Source of the DNA: a bacterium
GTDB taxonomy: Bacteria; Hinthialibacterota; Hinthialibacteria; Hinthialibacterales; Hinthialibacteraceae
DNA length: 64,000 bases
Direction of reading: 5' to 3'
Assembly: GCA_963663405.2 (NCBI GenBank)
Contig: CAXXSM010000109.1
Span: 8,632 to 72,631, forward strand
The first letter of the stretch is position 1. Each line of letters starts with the position of its first letter. Under the pieces are notes generated by a model. That model was not told the origin of the DNA. It saw only the letters and a list, made by a program, of their open reading frames with translations, and ran no database searches. This document shows, piece after piece, positions 35,976-40,473 of this stretch. The position numbers were made by a program, and so were the translations under genes.

Positions 35976-36296
35976 CTAGGCTGATACCTGCTTTAATACT
36001 TCATCAGAAATGGGAACGATTCGTTGATCTATCTGCTCTCCAATTGAGGATTTTGCGACTTTCAGGTCATATCGTTGTTGTAAATTAAGCCAGAGTTCCG
36101 GCCCGGTTTTAAAAAAACGGCCTAGACGCAACGCCATATCCGCCGTAATTCGTTGTGTATTATTGACAATAGCATTAACTCGCGCTGTTGACACATCCAA
36201 CTCGCACGCTAGTTTATTCTGACTCAAACCCAGTGGTTCCATAAATTCAGTTAAAAGAATACTCCCTGGGGTTACAGGCTCCAACTTTCTAGCCAT
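35976..36296 (-). CDS. higA: HigA antitoxin (HTH)
   Basis: PGSILLTEFMEPLGLSQNKLA...ITADMALRLGRFF..PELWLNLQ. Confidence 0.93.
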   Translation of the reverse strand: MARKLEPVTPGSILLTEFMEPLGLSQNKLACELDVSTARVNAIVNNTQRITADMALRLGRFFKTGPELWLNLQQRYDLKVAKSSIGEQIDQRIVPISDEVLKQVSA

Positions 36297-36309
36297 AATT
36301 CATCGCCTT

Positions 36310-36588
36310 TCAGTGGTAATCACAAATCTCCACATCAAACGCGTCATGGTCTTTCCATGTAAAACAGATTCTCCATTGATCGTTGATACGTATACTACAT
36401 TGCCCTTTTCGAGAACCCTTCAGGTTCTCAAGCCGGTTGCCAGGTATTGCACGAAGCACATCTAGACTGGTTGAGGCATTAAGTAATTCCAATTTTTTTC
36501 TAGCTGGTACAGCGATAGATCGAAAACGTTTTACATCTTCGTCGTCGAATAATCGCTCTGTCTCTTTGCACTTAAAGGTCTTAATCAT
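36310..36588 (-). CDS. higB: HigB toxin (RelE-like, plasmid maintenance killer)
   Basis: MIKTFKCKETERLF...PGNRLENLKG..GQCSIRINDQWRICF..DVEICDYH. Confidence 0.94.
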   Translation of the reverse strand: MIKTFKCKETERLFDDEDVKRFRSIAVPARKKLELLNASTSLDVLRAIPGNRLENLKGSRKGQCSIRINDQWRICFTWKDHDAFDVEICDYH

Positions 36589-36700: not shown

Positions 36701-38161
36701 TCATTCATCCCCAATAATCTCCCGCAGTTTAGGAATCATCTCTTCACGGGGAATGGTTTGTTGGCCGGTTTTCCCGGATTTTCTGTATTCATCCCGATCG
36801 CTGATATCCGCCCGTTTCTCTTTGCCAGCGACCAAATCTTTGATTGAGATCTGATTGGATTCCAGTTCGTCGGAACCTACGATAATCGCGGCGGGGATAT
36901 TCTTGTGATTGGCGTAGGCTAATTGATCGCTCATCTTGGCTTTCCGTTTGCCAAGATAGATCTCCGCTGAAATGTTGTTATCCCGCAATTCACGCGCGAT
37001 TTTCAGCAATTCGGTCATGGGCACGCCTCGCATTGTGATGATTAAGACTTTCGTCGTCGTCGGCTCTGTATCGATTTTCCCGATGGCATTTAATCCCGCC
37101 AACAACCGGTCAAGGCCGATGGAGACACCCGTCGCGGGGATTGGGTCAGGCATGAATCGTTCAACCAAGTGATCGTACCGTCCACCACCCATGATGGAAC
37201 CGACCTGTGGCGCTCCGGGAAGAATCGTCTCGTACACCGGGCCTGTATAATAATCAAGACCGCGGGCGAGGCTGGGCAAGAAAACCACTTCGTCTTCTCC
37301 CACGCCAAGGCTGTCCAATGCGGCGGCCAGTTCTTTCATTTCATCAATTGCGGTATGTGTGCATTCCGCGTCAGGCAAGACCTTACCAACCGTTTCCAAA
37401 ACCGACGCCCGAGTTTCTGAAGAAATGGCGATAAATTCGAGGATTTTATCGATTGTGCCGCTTTCCAGCCCCACTCCACGAATCGGATCACCCGATTCAT
37501 CAACACGGCCTTCGCCTAATTCCTTCCGAATGTTGTCTAAGCCAACTTTGTCCAGTTTATCGACGACGCGCAGAACATGCTTTCTCGTCTCTTCACCATC
37601 GATATTGGATGCGATCAAGAGCGCGTCCATTAACCCGCGGCTGTTTACACGAATCTGATATTCACCATCGCTCAATCCCAAGTCACGCAGGACATCACAC
37701 ATGGCCGCAATGATTTCAGCGTCGATCACAACCGATTTGGATCCCGCCGCGTCGATATCAAATTGCGTAAACTGGCGGAACCGGCCGGGACCGGGTTTAT
37801 CCGCGCGGAACACGGGTCCAATGTGATAGCGCCGGAAAGGCAATTTCACCGTATCGGGATACTGCGCCAAAATACGCGCGAAGGGAACGGTCAGATCGAA
37901 ACGCATGCCAATCGGTTCCCGTTCCGGGCTTTCCAGCCGGAAAATCTCTTTATTGATCTCCTCGCCACCGGTTCCAATTAACGTGACGAGGTATTCAAGA
38001 ATCGGCGTATCGATCGGCACGAAACCGTATCGCTCGTACACATTGCGTATCACCTCAATGACGCGATTGCGGGCGATCATCTCCTCCGGAAGATAATCAC
38101 AGAATCCTTTTAAAGTTTGAGGTTGAACGAATCCCTTTGCTTGTTCCGGACTTTGAGTCAT
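36701..38161 (-). CDS. hisS: Histidyl-tRNA synthetase (non-canonical, alphaproteobacterial-like type)
   Basis: RFDLTVPFAR, motif 2 FRADKPGPGRFRQFTQFDID, LARGLDYYTG, GGGRYD, GVSIGLDRL. Confidence 0.96.
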   Translation of the reverse strand: MTQSPEQAKGFVQPQTLKGFCDYLPEEMIARNRVIEVIRNVYERYGFVPIDTPILEYLVTLIGTGGEEINKEIFRLESPEREPIGMRFDLTVPFARILAQYPDTVKLPFRRYHIGPVFRADKPGPGRFRQFTQFDIDAAGSKSVVIDAEIIAAMCDVLRDLGLSDGEYQIRVNSRGLMDALLIASNIDGEETRKHVLRVVDKLDKVGLDNIRKELGEGRVDESGDPIRGVGLESGTIDKILEFIAISSETRASVLETVGKVLPDAECTHTAIDEMKELAAALDSLGVGEDEVVFLPSLARGLDYYTGPVYETILPGAPQVGSIMGGGRYDHLVERFMPDPIPATGVSIGLDRLLAGLNAIGKIDTEPTTTKVLIITMRGVPMTELLKIARELRDNNISAEIYLGKRKAKMSDQLAYANHKNIPAAIIVGSDELESNQISIKDLVAGKEKRADISDRDEYRKSGKTGQQTIPREEMIPKLREIIGDE

Positions 38162-38228
38162 GAAAAGCGTCCTCCTGCGCTGTTTTCTCTAATAAAACTG
38201 CTGTTACATTAATTCACTGATAGAGTTT

Positions 38229-38373
38229 TTTGTCTGAATCAGGATGGCCAAGATTTAAAGGATGGCCAGGATAATTTGCACTTTATTGAGGGATATTTCA
38301 TGAAAATGAGAGTCACTATAATGATTCCTATCCTGCGAATCCTAATCATCCTGGGTATCCAGATTCAGACAAA
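38229..38373. repeat. MITE-like element with terminal inverted repeats and 9-nt periodic ggat units
   Basis: tttgtctgaatcaggat... at the left end and ...atccagattcagacaaa at the right end; four ggat/agat or atcc units per arm at 9-nt period. Confidence 0.7.
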
Positions 38374-38520
38374 GATATCTCTCTTGTTTCATCTGTAATA
38401 TACTATTTCCGTACGTATTCGCGTAACCTCAATTATAATAATGCCGTCCGTGTCAATCGCGAGAACCAACCCGAATGGGTGATTCCTTTATCTTAATCGT
38501 ACAAACGGTAAATGGAAAAA

Positions 38521-38598
38521 TGGTACCGGGAACGGGACTTGAACCCATGACCTCCTGATCCACAGTCAGGCGCTCTAAACCAACTGAGCTATCCCGGC
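38521..38598 (-). tRNA. tRNA-His(GUG), copy 2 (no G-1; A73)
   Basis: GCCGGGA TA GCTC AGTTGGTTTA GAGC G CCTGA CT-GTG-GA TCAGG AGGTC ATGGG TTCAAGT CCCGT TCCCGGT A CCA. Confidence 0.96.
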
Positions 38599-38628
38599 TC
38601 GTTATGTTCGAAGACGTTAAAAGAGGAA

Positions 38629-38706
38629 TGGTACCGGGAACGGGACTTGAACCCATGACCTCCTGATCCACAGTCAGGCGCTCTAAACCAACTGAGCTAT
38701 CCCGGC
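38629..38706 (-). tRNA. tRNA-His(GUG), copy 1 (no G-1; A73)
   Basis: Identical 78-nt cloverleaf, separated from copy 2 by 30 nt. Confidence 0.96.
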
Positions 38707-38723
38707 ACATTGACTATCTATTC

Positions 38724-38752
38724 ATAATACGCCAGCCACAAGCAACTGGCAA
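38724..38752 (-). promoter_or_regulatory. Sigma70 promoter for the tRNA-His pair
   Basis: TTGCCA-17 nt-TATTAT on the minus strand, 17 nt upstream of tRNA copy 1. Confidence 0.7.
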
Positions 38753-38780
38753 GACGAAACTCGTAACTCTCACTGATCTT

Positions 38781-39587
38781 CTAATCAATAATCCAATCGA
38801 TTCGATTAATATCATACAAACGCTGAGAACATTTCCACCATTCCTTAACAATAGAAACCTTCTCTTCTTTGGATAGGTTTGAAACGCTTAACCTTTGCGA
38901 ATACCACGTCTTTTTTTCAAATTTTTTCTTAGTAAGACGATTCACAATAGGAATCAAAGACAAATCGCCTTCCTCTACTTTCACAATCAAGCTAGGCAAT
39001 ATACAAATGCCCAGGTTTTGCATTTTTTTTATTACCGTTTCATCTTTCTTGCTTTTATATTCTTCATAAAAAAAATTAAATAGTTGAATATCTTCTAAAT
39101 ATCCATGTTCCCACCAATCAATTTGACTTTGCGCCCTGCCATTCCCATTACTATAGTATTCATCCGAAAATACCTTTTGTGACATACTTTCACAAACGAT
39201 TGTGTACAATACCATCTTGCTTGGAGGAAATTGAATTATAAACTGGTTTGAAGTAATCTCACCCTTTTTCAATTCAACTTTAAGCATTTCAATGATGTAT
39301 GGAATGATCTGTACTCCACAATCAACCATACGCTTATAACTGTCCAATCCATGTAGATATGGATAGTAGTCCGAATAGGGATGGTCTTCCTCTACTTCAT
39401 CGACATCCTTAACCCAGGCTTCAACGAGAGATTTAACATTTTCTTTTGTTTGAAGGACGTCTTTACATTCATTACTCGTTTCTAAAACATTTGTACGAGT
39501 ATCATCGTCAAGTTTCTCTCCCGTATTGCAACCCAATACGAATACAGAAAGACAAATGAAAATGAATATAAAATTTATGTTATTCAT
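38781..39587 (-). CDS. AT-rich hypothetical lipoprotein
   Basis: MNNINFIFIFICLSVFVLG-C lipobox; start overlaps the hisG stop; about 30% GC. Confidence 0.7.
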   Translation of the reverse strand: MNNINFIFIFICLSVFVLGCNTGEKLDDDTRTNVLETSNECKDVLQTKENVKSLVEAWVKDVDEVEEDHPYSDYYPYLHGLDSYKRMVDCGVQIIPYIIEMLKVELKKGEITSNQFIIQFPPSKMVLYTIVCESMSQKVFSDEYYSNGNGRAQSQIDWWEHGYLEDIQLFNFFYEEYKSKKDETVIKKMQNLGICILPSLIVKVEEGDLSLIPIVNRLTKKKFEKKTWYSQRLSVSNLSKEEKVSIVKEWWKCSQRLYDINRIDWIID

Positions 39588-40473
39588 ACAGCATCTCAAC
39601 CGCCGCCACCGAAATTTTCTTCGCATGATTCCGAATTAGAATCGGAATGATATCTTTAATCGACGAACGGTCCGCGATGGCTTCGAATAGAAACTCCCCA
39701 TTATTATCCGGACAGACGGTGTATTGCGCCGCGTTGGATTTCAATGTCTCGATCAATGCGTCTATGTTGTCTTTGCCGGCGGAGAAGCGAATACTGTCTT
39801 TTCCCTCCGCTTTCAAACAACTAGCCAGCAGGAGAGAAATATCATTCATCTTCCGCCGCTTCCATTCATCTTCCATATAAACAGGCTTGTTCGCAAAAAA
39901 GCGCGTGGTCGATTCGGTCACGGTTTCTACGATTCGCAGTTTATTCGCCTTTAATGAAGATCCTGTCTCTGTACATTCAACGATCGCATCGGCGAAAAAG
40001 GGCGCTTTTGCTTCCGTCGCTCCCCAGGAGAACATCACATCAGCGATGATCCCCTTCTTCGAAAGCCAATCTTCTGTCACCGCGCGCAATTCCGTTGAGA
40101 TCCGCACGGGTTGTTTCACGTTTTTCAGGTCCTGCACTTCATAGACTGGAGAATCTTCCGGCACCGCCAATACCCAGCGCACCGGCCGGAAACTGCGCTT
40201 CGAATAACATAAATCCGTCAACAGTTTAATTTCTCCATCGCACCGGTTTTCAAGAATCCAATCCCATCCGGCGAGACCGCAATCAAGGTTTCCTTTCGCG
40301 ACGTAATTCGGGATTTCCTGCGGGCGCAGCAACACGGGTTTCAATTCCGCGTCATTGGAATCAAGCCAGAGCGAACGCTCCGAACCCCATAACTTAATCC
40401 CCGCTTTCGCAAAAAGCGCAATCGTGGATTGTTCGAGACTTCCCTTCGGAATCCCAATTAACAACTGTTTCAT
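39580..40473 (-). CDS. hisG: ATP phosphoribosyltransferase, long form
   Basis: IGIPKGSL, LLRPQEIP, DCGLAGWDW, FSWGATEAK, DAIVECTETGSSLKANKL. Confidence 0.93.
   Translation of the reverse strand: MKQLLIGIPKGSLEQSTIALFAKAGIKLWGSERSLWLDSNDAELKPVLLRPQEIPNYVAKGNLDCGLAGWDWILENRCDGEIKLLTDLCYSKRSFRPVRWVLAVPEDSPVYEVQDLKNVKQPVRISTELRAVTEDWLSKKGIIADVMFSWGATEAKAPFFADAIVECTETGSSLKANKLRIVETVTESTTRFFANKPVYMEDEWKRRKMNDISLLLASCLKAEGKDSIRFSAGKDNIDALIETLKSNAAQYTVCPDNNGEFLFEAIADRSSIKDIIPILIRNHAKKISVAAVEMLYE

What the first reader, a model, noticed from the sequence alone, without database searches (positions are those of the whole stretch)
38521..38706. tRNA-His genes without G-1, with A73 and a G1-U72 pair
Seen: both copies start GCCGGGA and end TCCCGGT-A-CCA; the base before G1 is T in one copy and A in the other, so no G-1 is encoded, the discriminator is A73 and the first pair is G1-U72. 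Established: almost all bacterial tRNA-His carry an encoded G-1 paired to C73 as the main HisRS identity element; the known exception is an alphaproteobacterial clade (Caulobacter, Rhizobiales) whose tRNA-His lacks G-1 and is read through A73, U72 and the anticodon. Inference: nothing else in the window looks alphaproteobacterial, so this may be a transferred or independent G-1-less histidine identity system in another lineage.
Basis: partly seen in the sequence, partly recalled or inferred. Interest (0 to 1): 0.9.

Follow-up and report, generated by a model that had tools for sequence, protein, structure and literature searches.

The report
G-1-less tRNA-His and matching synthetase
Two identical histidine tRNA genes that lack the almost universal extra 5' G lie just upstream of the unusual synthetase type that charges such tRNAs, a pair described in print only for some alphaproteobacteria but here present in an unrelated small phylum and, by comparison, in many other bacterial lineages.

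Summary
Window 38521-38598 and 38629-38706 (minus strand) are two identical tRNA-His(GUG) genes with G1-U72, A73 and encoded CCA. The base before G1 is A in one copy and T in the other. They are the only tRNA-His genes found in this 82%-complete genome, which shows no Thg1. About 360 nt downstream on the same strand lies the genome's only hisS. Its product shares the motif-2 loop 'KPGPGR', an insertion-domain insert and a C-terminal insert with the alphaproteobacterial G-1-independent HisRS, and groups with it in trees. The genome is not alphaproteobacterial. In its small phylum of 35 species genomes, 9 carry this HisRS type. All 7 of those with a tRNA-His found have the G-1-less form, and the 23 other genomes with both genes typed have G-1/C73. 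Close family relatives mostly use the canonical system. The same pair occurs in 124 of 135 Hydrogenedentota genomes, in Bryobacterales-labelled genomes and in scattered MAGs, often as a linked tRNA-hisS unit. I read it as a laterally spread member of the known G-1-less system. The mature 5' end and the charging rules remain untested. This scan reported the same pair earlier on other DNA (e1-4749266, e1-4908917, e1-4759498).

The parts
38629..38706 (-). tRNA-His(GUG), upstream copy: G1-U72, A73, CCA encoded, base -1 = T
   Evidence: ARAGORN; Rfam tRNA 70.9 bits; sequence
38521..38598 (-). tRNA-His(GUG), downstream copy, identical to the first; base -1 = A
38599..38628 (-). 30-nt spacer between the two tRNA copies
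   Evidence: bridged by contigs of two studies
38724..38752 (-). sigma-70-like promoter match (TTGCCA-17-TATTAT, 10 of 12) 18 nt upstream of the first tRNA; weak evidence only
   Evidence: 4 sites in the region against 10.0 expected from shuffles, so the scan as a whole is not above chance
36701..38161 (-). hisS, 486 aa, the only histidyl-tRNA synthetase gene found in the genome; G-1-independent ('deltaG-1') type
   Evidence: TIGR00442 383.1 bits (cut-off 286.75); Pfam tRNA-synt_His + HGTP_anticodon; motif-2 loop; shared inserts; trees
38227..38375 (.). MITE-like palindromic repeat inserted in the 360-nt tRNA-hisS spacer (not part of the mechanism)
   Evidence: 95 further BLAST hits on many contigs of the genome, in both orientations; raised contig depth and loose ends
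39580..40473 (-). hisG (ATP phosphoribosyltransferase) upstream on the same strand; the order hisG - tRNA-His - hisS recurs in two other families of the phylum
   Evidence: Pfam HisG 2.9e-37; synteny with G082 (62% id) and G081
38781..39626 (-). AT-rich ORF of 281 aa without Pfam match, lying between hisG and the tRNAs; absent from the G082 and G081 versions of the cassette

Best explanation
These are the cell's working histidine tRNA genes. Together with the hisS gene 360 nt downstream, they form a G-1-independent histidine identity pair of the kind characterised in Caulobacter crescentus.

Proposed mechanism. The two tRNAs are transcribed, perhaps from their own promoter and perhaps reading on into hisS. 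A73 cannot form the G-1:C73 pair that shifts RNase P cleavage, so RNase P cuts at the ordinary +1 site. The mature tRNA therefore has a normal 7-bp acceptor stem that begins G1-U72 and ends A73-CCA. The neighbouring HisRS has Gly in place of the motif-2 Gln that reads G-1:C73, and it carries extra inserts. It selects this tRNA through the GUG anticodon plus U72/A73, not through G-1.

Proposed history. The pair belongs to the same lineage as the alphaproteobacterial one. It entered this non-alphaproteobacterial lineage by lateral transfer as a physically linked unit (here hisG - tRNA-His - hisS) and replaced the canonical G-1/C73 pair that most members of the same family still use.

Shown here: the gene features; sole copies in the assembly; the HisRS clade and motifs; strict covariation of tRNA type and HisRS type; a patchy distribution; physical linkage. 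Inferred, not shown: the mature 5' end, the recognition rules and the direction of transfer.
For: tRNA features.

Sole copies. ARAGORN finds 42 tRNA genes in the genome, and the only two tRNA-His genes are these. Only one hisS is above cut-off. A model of canonical tRNA-His finds none in this genome, although it scores 79-104 bits in 24 relatives.

No Thg1. None in this genome, and in only 3 of 50 other genomes that carry the pair.

HisRS. The best plasmid-collection matches are alphaproteobacteria of the G-1-less clade at 300-327 bits, against 193-255 bits for Bacteroides, Bacillus and Clostridia. A clade with SH-aLRT 98 (58 of 66 rows) and 99 (41 of 61 rows) joins the window's enzyme with the 4 alphaproteobacterial ones. 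That clade excludes all enzymes from genomes with G-1/C73 tRNA-His. The motif-2 loop reads RADKPGPGR, against alphaproteobacterial RNEKPGPGR and canonical R-x-E-R-x-Q-x-GR. This matches the 'Gly123 instead of Gln123' trait named in PMC3937112 (passages). An insertion-domain insert (G.GR.DESGD...G.GL) and a C-terminal insert are shared only with the alphaproteobacterial enzymes among those aligned.

Covariation in the window's own phylum (35 genomes). Nine genomes have this HisRS type. Seven of these have a tRNA-His found, and all 7 are G-1-less. Of the 24 genomes with a canonical tRNA-His, the 23 in which hisS was also found all have another HisRS type. No genome has two hisS genes.

Nesting among canonical relatives. 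Sixteen of the 19 other genomes of the same family have G-1/C73. G082 lies inside a canonical clade in the RpoB tree.

Linkage. A tRNA-His lies directly upstream of hisS in 13 of 58 related loci (one is cut at a contig end). Almost all of these belong to the HisRS subclade whose hosts are taxonomically most scattered.

Biochemistry of the model pair: C. crescentus HisRS charges G-1-less tRNA, depends on the anticodon and U72, and is orthogonal to the E. coli pair (PMC3064791, whole text).
Against: No RNA data exist for this organism, so the mature 5' end is inferred. The genome is 82% complete, so an unassembled canonical tRNA-His cannot be excluded. The base at -1 is T in 37 of 52 G-1-less genes and could pair with A73. 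I could not establish a reliable baseline for -1 bases, so retention of U-1 is not excluded.

The direction of change is unresolved. The phylum holds at least four different canonical-type HisRS lineages, so hisS has been replaced repeatedly, and the G-1-less state could be old in part of the phylum. The shared order hisG - tRNA - hisS in three families fits either an old arrangement or transfer within the phylum. hisS shows no compositional anomaly.

The trees are 'quick' IQ-TREE runs with SH-aLRT support only. Outgroups are few, and no eukaryotic or cyanobacterial enzymes are included. Covariance-model E-values are rough. Organism labels of MAGs are the depositors' and some are clearly wrong.
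Confidence: 0.8

Rival explanations
1. The mature tRNA does carry a -1 nucleotide. Either a G is added after transcription by a Thg1-like or unknown enzyme, or the encoded -1 base (often U, which can pair with A73) is kept by RNase P. In that case identity would still rest on an 8-bp acceptor stem.
For: T at -1 in 37 of 52 G-1-less genes. ARAGORN itself drew an 8-bp stem with T-1 in several genes. Thg1-family genes are present in 3 of 50 genomes with the pair. Archaeal-type Thg1 adds U opposite A73 in vitro (PMC3245924 passages).
Against: The two copies in the window differ at -1 (A and T), so a retained base would give two different mature tRNAs. No Thg1 was found here or in 47 of 50 other carriers, including complete chromosomes. 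The HisRS lacks the motif-2 Gln associated with G-1:C73 reading. In C. crescentus, adding G-1 lowers charging efficiency 5-fold (PMC3064791, Table 1).
Confidence: 0.07
2. The cassette is an accessory second histidine system. The housekeeping canonical tRNA-His and hisS would lie in the unassembled 18% of the genome.
For: Completeness is 82.36% and several expected tRNA species are missing from the 42 found. A HigB/HTH toxin-antitoxin pair and a MITE-like repeat lie in or beside the cassette.
Against: None of the 34 genomes of the phylum with a hisS match has two hisS genes. Neither G058 (95% complete) nor G082 (96% complete) shows a canonical tRNA-His. Five Bryobacterales-labelled chromosomes and one Hydrogenedentota chromosome have only the G-1-less tRNA-His. 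The neighbouring genes are native to this lineage.
Confidence: 0.05
3. The pair is old in this phylum and inherited vertically by the window's organism. The canonical systems of its relatives would then be the later replacements.
For: The order hisG - tRNA-His - hisS is shared by three families. The canonical HisRS genes of the phylum fall into at least four unrelated lineages, which requires several replacements anyway. hisS has the genome's average G+C content. A neighbouring gene suggests that G000, G058 and G075 form a subclade.
Against: The phylum's G-1-less HisRS genes are not one clade. The f3 enzymes branch apart, G081 groups with a Sumerlaeota-labelled MAG (95), and G058/G075 group with an Opitutales-labelled MAG (95). 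HisRS identity between the window and G082 (63%) is about as high as RpoB identity (65%), which is more than expected for vertical descent. G082 is nested among canonical genomes.
Confidence: 0.2
4. G-1 independence arose here by convergence and is unrelated to the alphaproteobacterial system.
For: Eukaryotes evolved G-1-independent HisRS several times (PMC4338351 passages).
Against: The window's enzyme shares a clade, a motif-2 loop and two inserts with the alphaproteobacterial enzymes. The tRNA features are also the same: A73, G1-U72, C2-G71 and an enlarged D-loop (PMC3064791).
Confidence: 0.03

Closest known systems
G-1-less ('deltaG-1') tRNA-His / HisRS pair of the alphaproteobacterial RRCH/RCS clade (Caulobacter crescentus, Rhizobiales, Rhodobacterales, most SAR11)
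   Same: No encoded G-1, A73, G1-U72, C2-G71 and a D-loop with extra U. The Sinorhizobium tRNA-His fetched here has the same acceptor end. HisRS has motif-2 KPGPGR, the insertion-domain insert and the C-terminal insert, and falls in the same clade. hisS lies near hisG (Ruegeria: hisS-hisZ-hisG).
   Different: The host is a different, small phylum. HisRS is only 36-40% identical and lacks an insert of about 8 residues, after the YYTGPV.E motif, that the four alphaproteobacterial enzymes have. The tRNA gene is duplicated and physically linked to hisS. The distribution among relatives is patchy and is not a clean clade character. The papers I saw call the alphaproteobacterial case the only bacterial one.
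Canonical bacterial histidine identity (E. coli, T. thermophilus): encoded G-1 paired with C73, read by the HisRS motif-2 loop
   Same: Same amino acid, same GUG anticodon, same class II HisRS fold family.
   Different: G-1 and C73 are absent. Gln in the motif-2 loop is replaced by Gly. PDB HisRS of this type match at only about 105-115 bits, against 210-218 for the Nostoc and human enzymes. Sixteen of the 19 other genomes of the same family use this canonical system.
Eukaryotic G-1-independent HisRS (Trypanosoma brucei, Acanthamoeba castellanii)
   Same: tRNA-His without G-1, A73, no Thg1, and reliance on the anticodon (PMC4338351 passages).
   Different: According to that paper these arose separately and do not share the preference for G1-U72. 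The T. brucei and T. cruzi enzymes in the PDB match the window's HisRS more weakly (144-150 bits) than the human enzyme does.

Membership tests
deltaG-1 tRNA-His / HisRS pair (alphaproteobacterial type) | No G encoded at position -1 of the tRNA-His gene | tested here: met
   -1 is T and A in the two copies
deltaG-1 tRNA-His / HisRS pair (alphaproteobacterial type) | Discriminator A73 instead of C73 | tested here: met
deltaG-1 tRNA-His / HisRS pair (alphaproteobacterial type) | G1-U72 first pair (U72 is a major determinant for C. crescentus HisRS) | tested here: met
   feature as stated in PMC3064791
deltaG-1 tRNA-His / HisRS pair (alphaproteobacterial type) | Enlarged D-loop with extra U20a | tested here: met
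   10-nt D-loop AGTTGGTTTA. The paper gives 9 nt for alphaproteobacteria. Canonical tRNA-His genes of the same family have 7 nt.
deltaG-1 tRNA-His / HisRS pair (alphaproteobacterial type) | HisRS motif-2 (IIb) loop with Gly in place of the Gln that reads G-1:C73 | tested here: met
   KPGPGR in the window and in the 4 alphaproteobacterial enzymes; Q in nearly all enzymes from genomes with a canonical tRNA-His; trait named in PMC3937112
deltaG-1 tRNA-His / HisRS pair (alphaproteobacterial type) | HisRS-specific inserts, including one in the anticodon-binding domain | tested here: met
   Two inserts are shared with the alphaproteobacterial enzymes and absent from the canonical enzymes aligned. 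I could not read Wang 2007 or Ardell 2006 (not held), so the match to the exact inserts they describe is inferred.
deltaG-1 tRNA-His / HisRS pair (alphaproteobacterial type) | HisRS belongs to one clade with the alphaproteobacterial deltaG-1 enzymes | tested here: met
   SH-aLRT 98 and 99 in two trees; few outgroups
deltaG-1 tRNA-His / HisRS pair (alphaproteobacterial type) | Mature tRNA-His lacks G-1; HisRS charges it without G-1 and depends on the anticodon and U72 | not testable with these tools
   No RNA run holds the locus; needs biochemistry
deltaG-1 tRNA-His / HisRS pair (alphaproteobacterial type) | Host is a member of the alphaproteobacterial RRCH clade (treated in print as a unique synapomorphy) | tested here: not met
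   Phylum of 35 species genomes; 16S 94% identical to a MAG labelled Ca. Omnitrophota. This is a statement about distribution, not about mechanism.
Canonical bacterial tRNA-His | Encoded G-1 paired with C73 | tested here: not met
Eukaryote-type tRNA-His maturation | A73 with G-1 added by Thg1 | tested here: not met
   A73 is present, but no PF04446 match in the genome (82% complete)
T-box-regulated aaRS operon | T-box leader upstream of hisS | tested here: not met
   No T-box among Rfam matches at E up to 1 over 38100-38800

The most novel reading that the evidence does not exclude
The G-1-less histidine system may not be an alphaproteobacterial curiosity. It may be a self-contained, orthogonal tRNA-His/HisRS module that moves between phyla as a linked gene unit and has repeatedly overwritten the near-universal G-1 rule. 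It is fixed in essentially the whole phylum Hydrogenedentota, present in a Bryobacterales-labelled lineage of Acidobacteriota, and patchy in this and other phyla. The alphaproteobacterial clade would then be one recipient or donor branch among several. That would reopen the published view that its HisRS came from a eukaryote and that the trait arose only once, as a clade marker.
Probability: 0.5. Interest if true: 0.75.

Novelty: new member of a known kind. Interest (0 to 1): 0.62.

Why it matters
G-1 on tRNA-His is one of the most conserved tRNA identity marks. The papers I could read give one alphaproteobacterial clade as the only bacterial exception and use it as a phylogenetic marker. This locus shows the same system in an unrelated phylum, next to relatives that keep the canonical rule, with the tRNA and synthetase genes linked. 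That gives a concrete route by which an identity rule can be swapped. An orthogonal tRNA/synthetase pair can arrive together, work alongside the resident pair without cross-charging, and then replace it. The finding also supplies many natural, diverged orthogonal HisRS/tRNA-His pairs for genetic-code engineering. It warns that tRNA-His annotation and the use of this trait as a clade marker need revisiting. Finally, it makes the origin of the alphaproteobacterial system testable with a much larger family.

Tried and rejected
Canonical tRNA-His elsewhere. ARAGORN on all 170 contigs and the canonical model R2 found none in G000. Model R1, built from G-1-less genes, proved insensitive to the short-D-loop canonical tRNA-His of the family, so I built R2 and do not rely on R1 for absences.

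Thg1. No match in G000.

T-box or other known leader between the tRNAs and hisS. None was found. The spacer instead holds a repeated MITE-like element.

Promoter/terminator scan. One good promoter-like site lies upstream of the first tRNA, but the region has fewer sites than shuffles give. It is not evidence on its own.

Expression. No RNA holder is listed for the locus. The laid runs are contigs only and cannot show 5' ends.

Baseline for the -1 base. ARAGORN's gene starts in G000 are too imprecise (several include an extra T) to give a trustworthy background. I therefore make no claim that T at -1 is enriched.

Composition. hisS shows no anomaly.

Naming the phylum. The only named close relatives are labelled 'Candidatus Omnitrophota bacterium' or just 'bacterium'. 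Depositors' labels are unreliable: several MAGs labelled Nitrospirales fall in the Hydrogenedentota group, and a 7.9-Mb MAG is labelled Akkermansia muciniphila. I leave the phylum unnamed.

Papers. Wang et al. 2007 and Ardell & Andersson 2006 are not held, so what I say of them comes from later papers that cite them. Searches of the held library found no report of a G-1-less bacterial tRNA-His outside alphaproteobacteria. Subscription journals and supplements were not searched.

Not done. No structure prediction or complex prediction was run; they would not have changed the reading. In one search the records of L075, L076 and W04 were not searched because of a size limit, and I did not repeat them.

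Full report
THE OBSERVATION. ARAGORN finds two tRNA genes in the window, both tRNA-His(GTG) on the minus strand, at 38521-38598 and 38629-38706. Rfam's tRNA model scores each at 70.9 bits. On the minus strand both read GCCGGGA ... TCCCGGT-A-CCA. That gives G1-U72, C2-G71, C3-G70, A73 and an encoded CCA, with a 10-nt D-loop. The preceding base is T in one copy and A in the other. Contigs from two studies, one a roughly 97%-identical relative, carry the same order hisS - tRNA - 30-nt spacer - tRNA.

THE REST OF THE GENOME. The assembly has 8.44 Mb in 170 contigs, 46.9% G+C, 82.36% completeness and 2.42% contamination. ARAGORN finds 42 tRNA genes, and the only tRNA-His genes are these two. No Thg1 domain is found. 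One hisS is above the NCBIfam cut-off (383.1 bits). It lies at window 36701-38161 on the minus strand, 360 nt downstream of the second tRNA copy. Upstream on the same strand are an unassigned AT-rich ORF and hisG. Downstream is a HigB/HTH pair. The tRNA-hisS spacer contains a palindromic repeat of about 150 nt with 95 further BLAST hits across the genome, and no T-box.

WHAT KIND OF HisRS. Against the PDB, the enzyme matches the Nostoc (3net), 6nhi and human cytoplasmic HisRS at 210-218 bits, and the E. coli and Thermus type at about 105-115 bits. In the plasmid collection, which holds chromids and some mislabelled chromosomes, the best 18 matches are all alphaproteobacteria of the orders known to lack G-1: Sinorhizobium, Shinella, Ruegeria, Pseudorhodobacter, Paracoccus, Paroceanicella, Cereibacter, Rhodobacter and Methylobacterium. 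They show 36-41% identity and 285-327 bits, ahead of Bacteroides, Bacillus and Clostridia at 193-255 bits.

A scan of one genome per species found 64 loci. Fifty-eight of them are 42-65% identical, in MAGs labelled Hydrogenedentota (many), Bryobacterales/Acidobacteriota, Omnitrophota, Abditibacteriaceae, Sumerlaeota, Verrucomicrobiota, Planctomycetota and others.

I built two IQ-TREE 'quick' trees. The first has 66 rows, after dropping 7 partial sequences (L036, L037, L042, L055, L062, L067, L068). The second has 61 rows chosen to include the window's phylum. Both give one clade (SH-aLRT 98 and 99) that joins the four alphaproteobacterial enzymes, the Acidobacteriota-labelled ones and the Hydrogenedentota-and-others group that holds the window. 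This clade excludes every enzyme from a genome with a canonical tRNA-His. Inside the clade, the three or four main branches are not resolved against each other.

Three sequence characters agree with the tree. First, the motif-2 loop reads KPGPGR in the window and in all four alphaproteobacterial enzymes, where most canonical enzymes have Q. This is the 'Gly123 versus Gln123' trait of PMC3937112. Second, an insert in the insertion domain (G.GR.DESGD...G.GL) is shared. Third, a C-terminal insert of about 20 residues is shared. Both inserts are absent from all canonical enzymes aligned. The alphaproteobacterial enzymes have one further insert that the window lacks.

DOES THE tRNA TYPE FOLLOW THE ENZYME TYPE? 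I built a covariance model from 13 G-1-less tRNA-His genes (R1) and one from 6 canonical genes (R2).

In the genomes behind loci L005-L035, 27 of 31 have a tRNA-His with A73 and U72. In the other 4, none was found or the gene is cut by a contig end. The next-best hits that I examined are tRNAs for other amino acids. In the genomes behind L039-L062, 18 of 19 have an A73-type tRNA-His. The Sinorhizobium record has the known G-1-less form. Control genomes (Clostridia, Gemmatimonadetes) have G-1/C73.

- U72 in 50 of 52; the two exceptions, with C72, go with a HisRS loop lengthened by two residues.
- G1 in 51 of 52.
- C2-G71 in the 50 genes scored for it.
- -1 = T 37, A 6, G 6, C 3.
- CCA encoded in 42 of 52.

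With R2, five Bryobacterales-labelled chromosomes and five other carriers show only Asp, Arg, Gly, Pro or Val tRNAs behind the G-1-less tRNA-His. Thg1-family genes occur in 3 of 50 carriers.

THE WINDOW'S OWN PHYLUM. The phylum holds 35 species genomes in one class: families f1 (the window plus 19 others), f2 (2), f3 (4), f4 (1), f5 (1) and f6 (7). The window-type HisRS (48-67% identity) is in 9 genomes: G000, G058 and G075 (f1), G077-G080 (f3), G081 (f5) and G082 (f6). Every genome with a hisS match has exactly one.

A G-1-less tRNA-His is found in 7 of these 9 genomes; no tRNA-His was found in G075 or G080. A canonical tRNA-His (G at -1, C73) is found in 24 of the other 26 genomes, including 16 of the 19 other f1 genomes, and in none of the 9. 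So the two characters covary without exception wherever both are typed (7 and 23 genomes).

The canonical-type enzymes of the phylum belong to at least four separate lineages. In an RpoB tree of 27 genomes, G082 is nested within canonical f6 genomes. G058 and G075 group with the canonical G065 (100), and the window joins f1 in a basal polytomy.

A neighbouring peptidase gene is 78% and 72% identical in G075 and G058, but absent or only 29% identical in two canonical f1 genomes. This shows that the contig is native, and it suggests that G000, G058 and G075 are a subclade.

The order hisG - tRNA-His - hisS is shared with G082 and G081 only. The phylum's G-1-less enzymes are not one clade: f3 branches apart, G081 groups with a Sumerlaeota-labelled MAG, and G058/G075 group with an Opitutales-labelled MAG.

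HOW WIDE IS IT? In the phylum of G010 (Hydrogenedentota by the depositors' labels), 124 of 135 species genomes have a match of at least 46% identity. Two genomes have only a 35-36% match, two have only short C-terminal pieces, and 7 have none. In a sample of 301 genomes of the class of G034 (Acidobacteriota), 10 have the enzyme at E <= 1e-100.

A tRNA-His lies directly upstream of hisS in 13 of 58 loci. Eleven of these 13 belong to the subclade with the most scattered hosts, or (L042, too short for the tree) match the window as closely as its members do. Two are in the main Hydrogenedentota clades and none is in the Acidobacteriota-labelled group.

READING. The pair is a member of the G-1-independent histidine system. 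Mechanistic knowledge comes from C. crescentus. Its HisRS charges a G-1-less transcript fully. Adding G-1 lowers efficiency 5-fold. U72C costs 91-fold and anticodon changes cost 91- to 1000-fold. The pair is orthogonal to that of E. coli (PMC3064791). By homology I infer the same for the window: ordinary +1 cleavage by RNase P, and recognition through the anticodon and U72/A73.

Orthogonality explains how a linked tRNA-synthetase unit can enter a genome, coexist with the resident pair and then replace it. I consider lateral acquisition in the window's lineage more likely than ancient vertical descent, at roughly 0.7 to 0.3 within the main reading, but the direction is not settled.

WHAT IS KNOWN. 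Every paper I could read states that the alphaproteobacterial clade is the only bacterial exception. [quoted passage not shown] Six searches of the held library found no report for other phyla. The two founding papers are not held, and supplements were closed.

Notes of this same scan report the pair in a Bacteroidales-like bacterium, an Acidimicrobiales chromosome and an actinobacterial island. These are unchecked AI notes that agree with what I found independently.

VERDICT. This is a new member, in a new phylum, of a known kind of system. The comparative evidence suggests that the system is far more widespread and mobile than the literature says. The biochemical claims remain inferences.

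Noticed in passing
window 38227-38375: A palindromic MITE-like repeat of about 150 nt sits in the tRNA-hisS spacer. It has 95 further BLAST hits on many contigs of the genome, in both orientations, and raised contig depth in public runs.
   Followed up: partly
window 35976-36588: A HigB-like toxin (92 aa) and an HTH_3 antitoxin-like gene (106 aa) lie directly downstream of hisS on the same strand.
   Followed up: no
L229 (G074:C10), about 1501-1575: A tRNA closely similar to tRNA-Arg(ACG) of its relatives has one extra G in the anticodon loop, giving 8 nt; ARAGORN reads the anticodon as 'gacg'. It may be a frameshift-suppressor-like tRNA, a pseudogene or a sequencing error.
   Followed up: no
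L039 and L051 (MAGs labelled Micromonosporaceae and Bifidobacteriaceae): The only two A73-type tRNA-His genes with G1-C72 instead of G1-U72 go with the only two HisRS whose motif-2 loop is two residues longer (..PQPEQGR). This may be a second covariation inside the G-1-less family.
   Followed up: partly
own phylum, loci L160-L200: hisS in this phylum of 35 genomes belongs to at least five unrelated lineages: one E. coli-like, three other canonical types and the G-1-less type. The gene has therefore been replaced many times.
   Followed up: partly
L237 (G055:C34): The canonical tRNA-His of G055 starts U1-A72 after G-1 (TTGAGAG...CTCTCAA-C-CCA). This first pair is unusual for tRNA-His.
   Followed up: no
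L136 (G037:C1): The G-1-less tRNA-His of one Bryobacterales-labelled chromosome starts A1-U72 instead of G1-U72.
   Followed up: no
G000 whole genome: Only 16 of 42 tRNA genes encode CCA, and both tRNA-His genes do. A tRNA-SeC gene is present.
   Followed up: no
L028 (G025), L010/L013/L018/L057: Depositors' organism labels are unreliable. A 7.9-Mb MAG is labelled Akkermansia muciniphila, and MAGs labelled Nitrospirales or Nitrospiraceae fall within the genome group of the Hydrogenedentota MAGs.
   Followed up: partly
L070 (Ruegeria sp. AD91A plasmid record): In this alphaproteobacterium the G-1-less-type hisS is followed by hisZ and hisG, so linkage of hisS with hisG recurs in two distant carriers of the system.
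   Followed up: no
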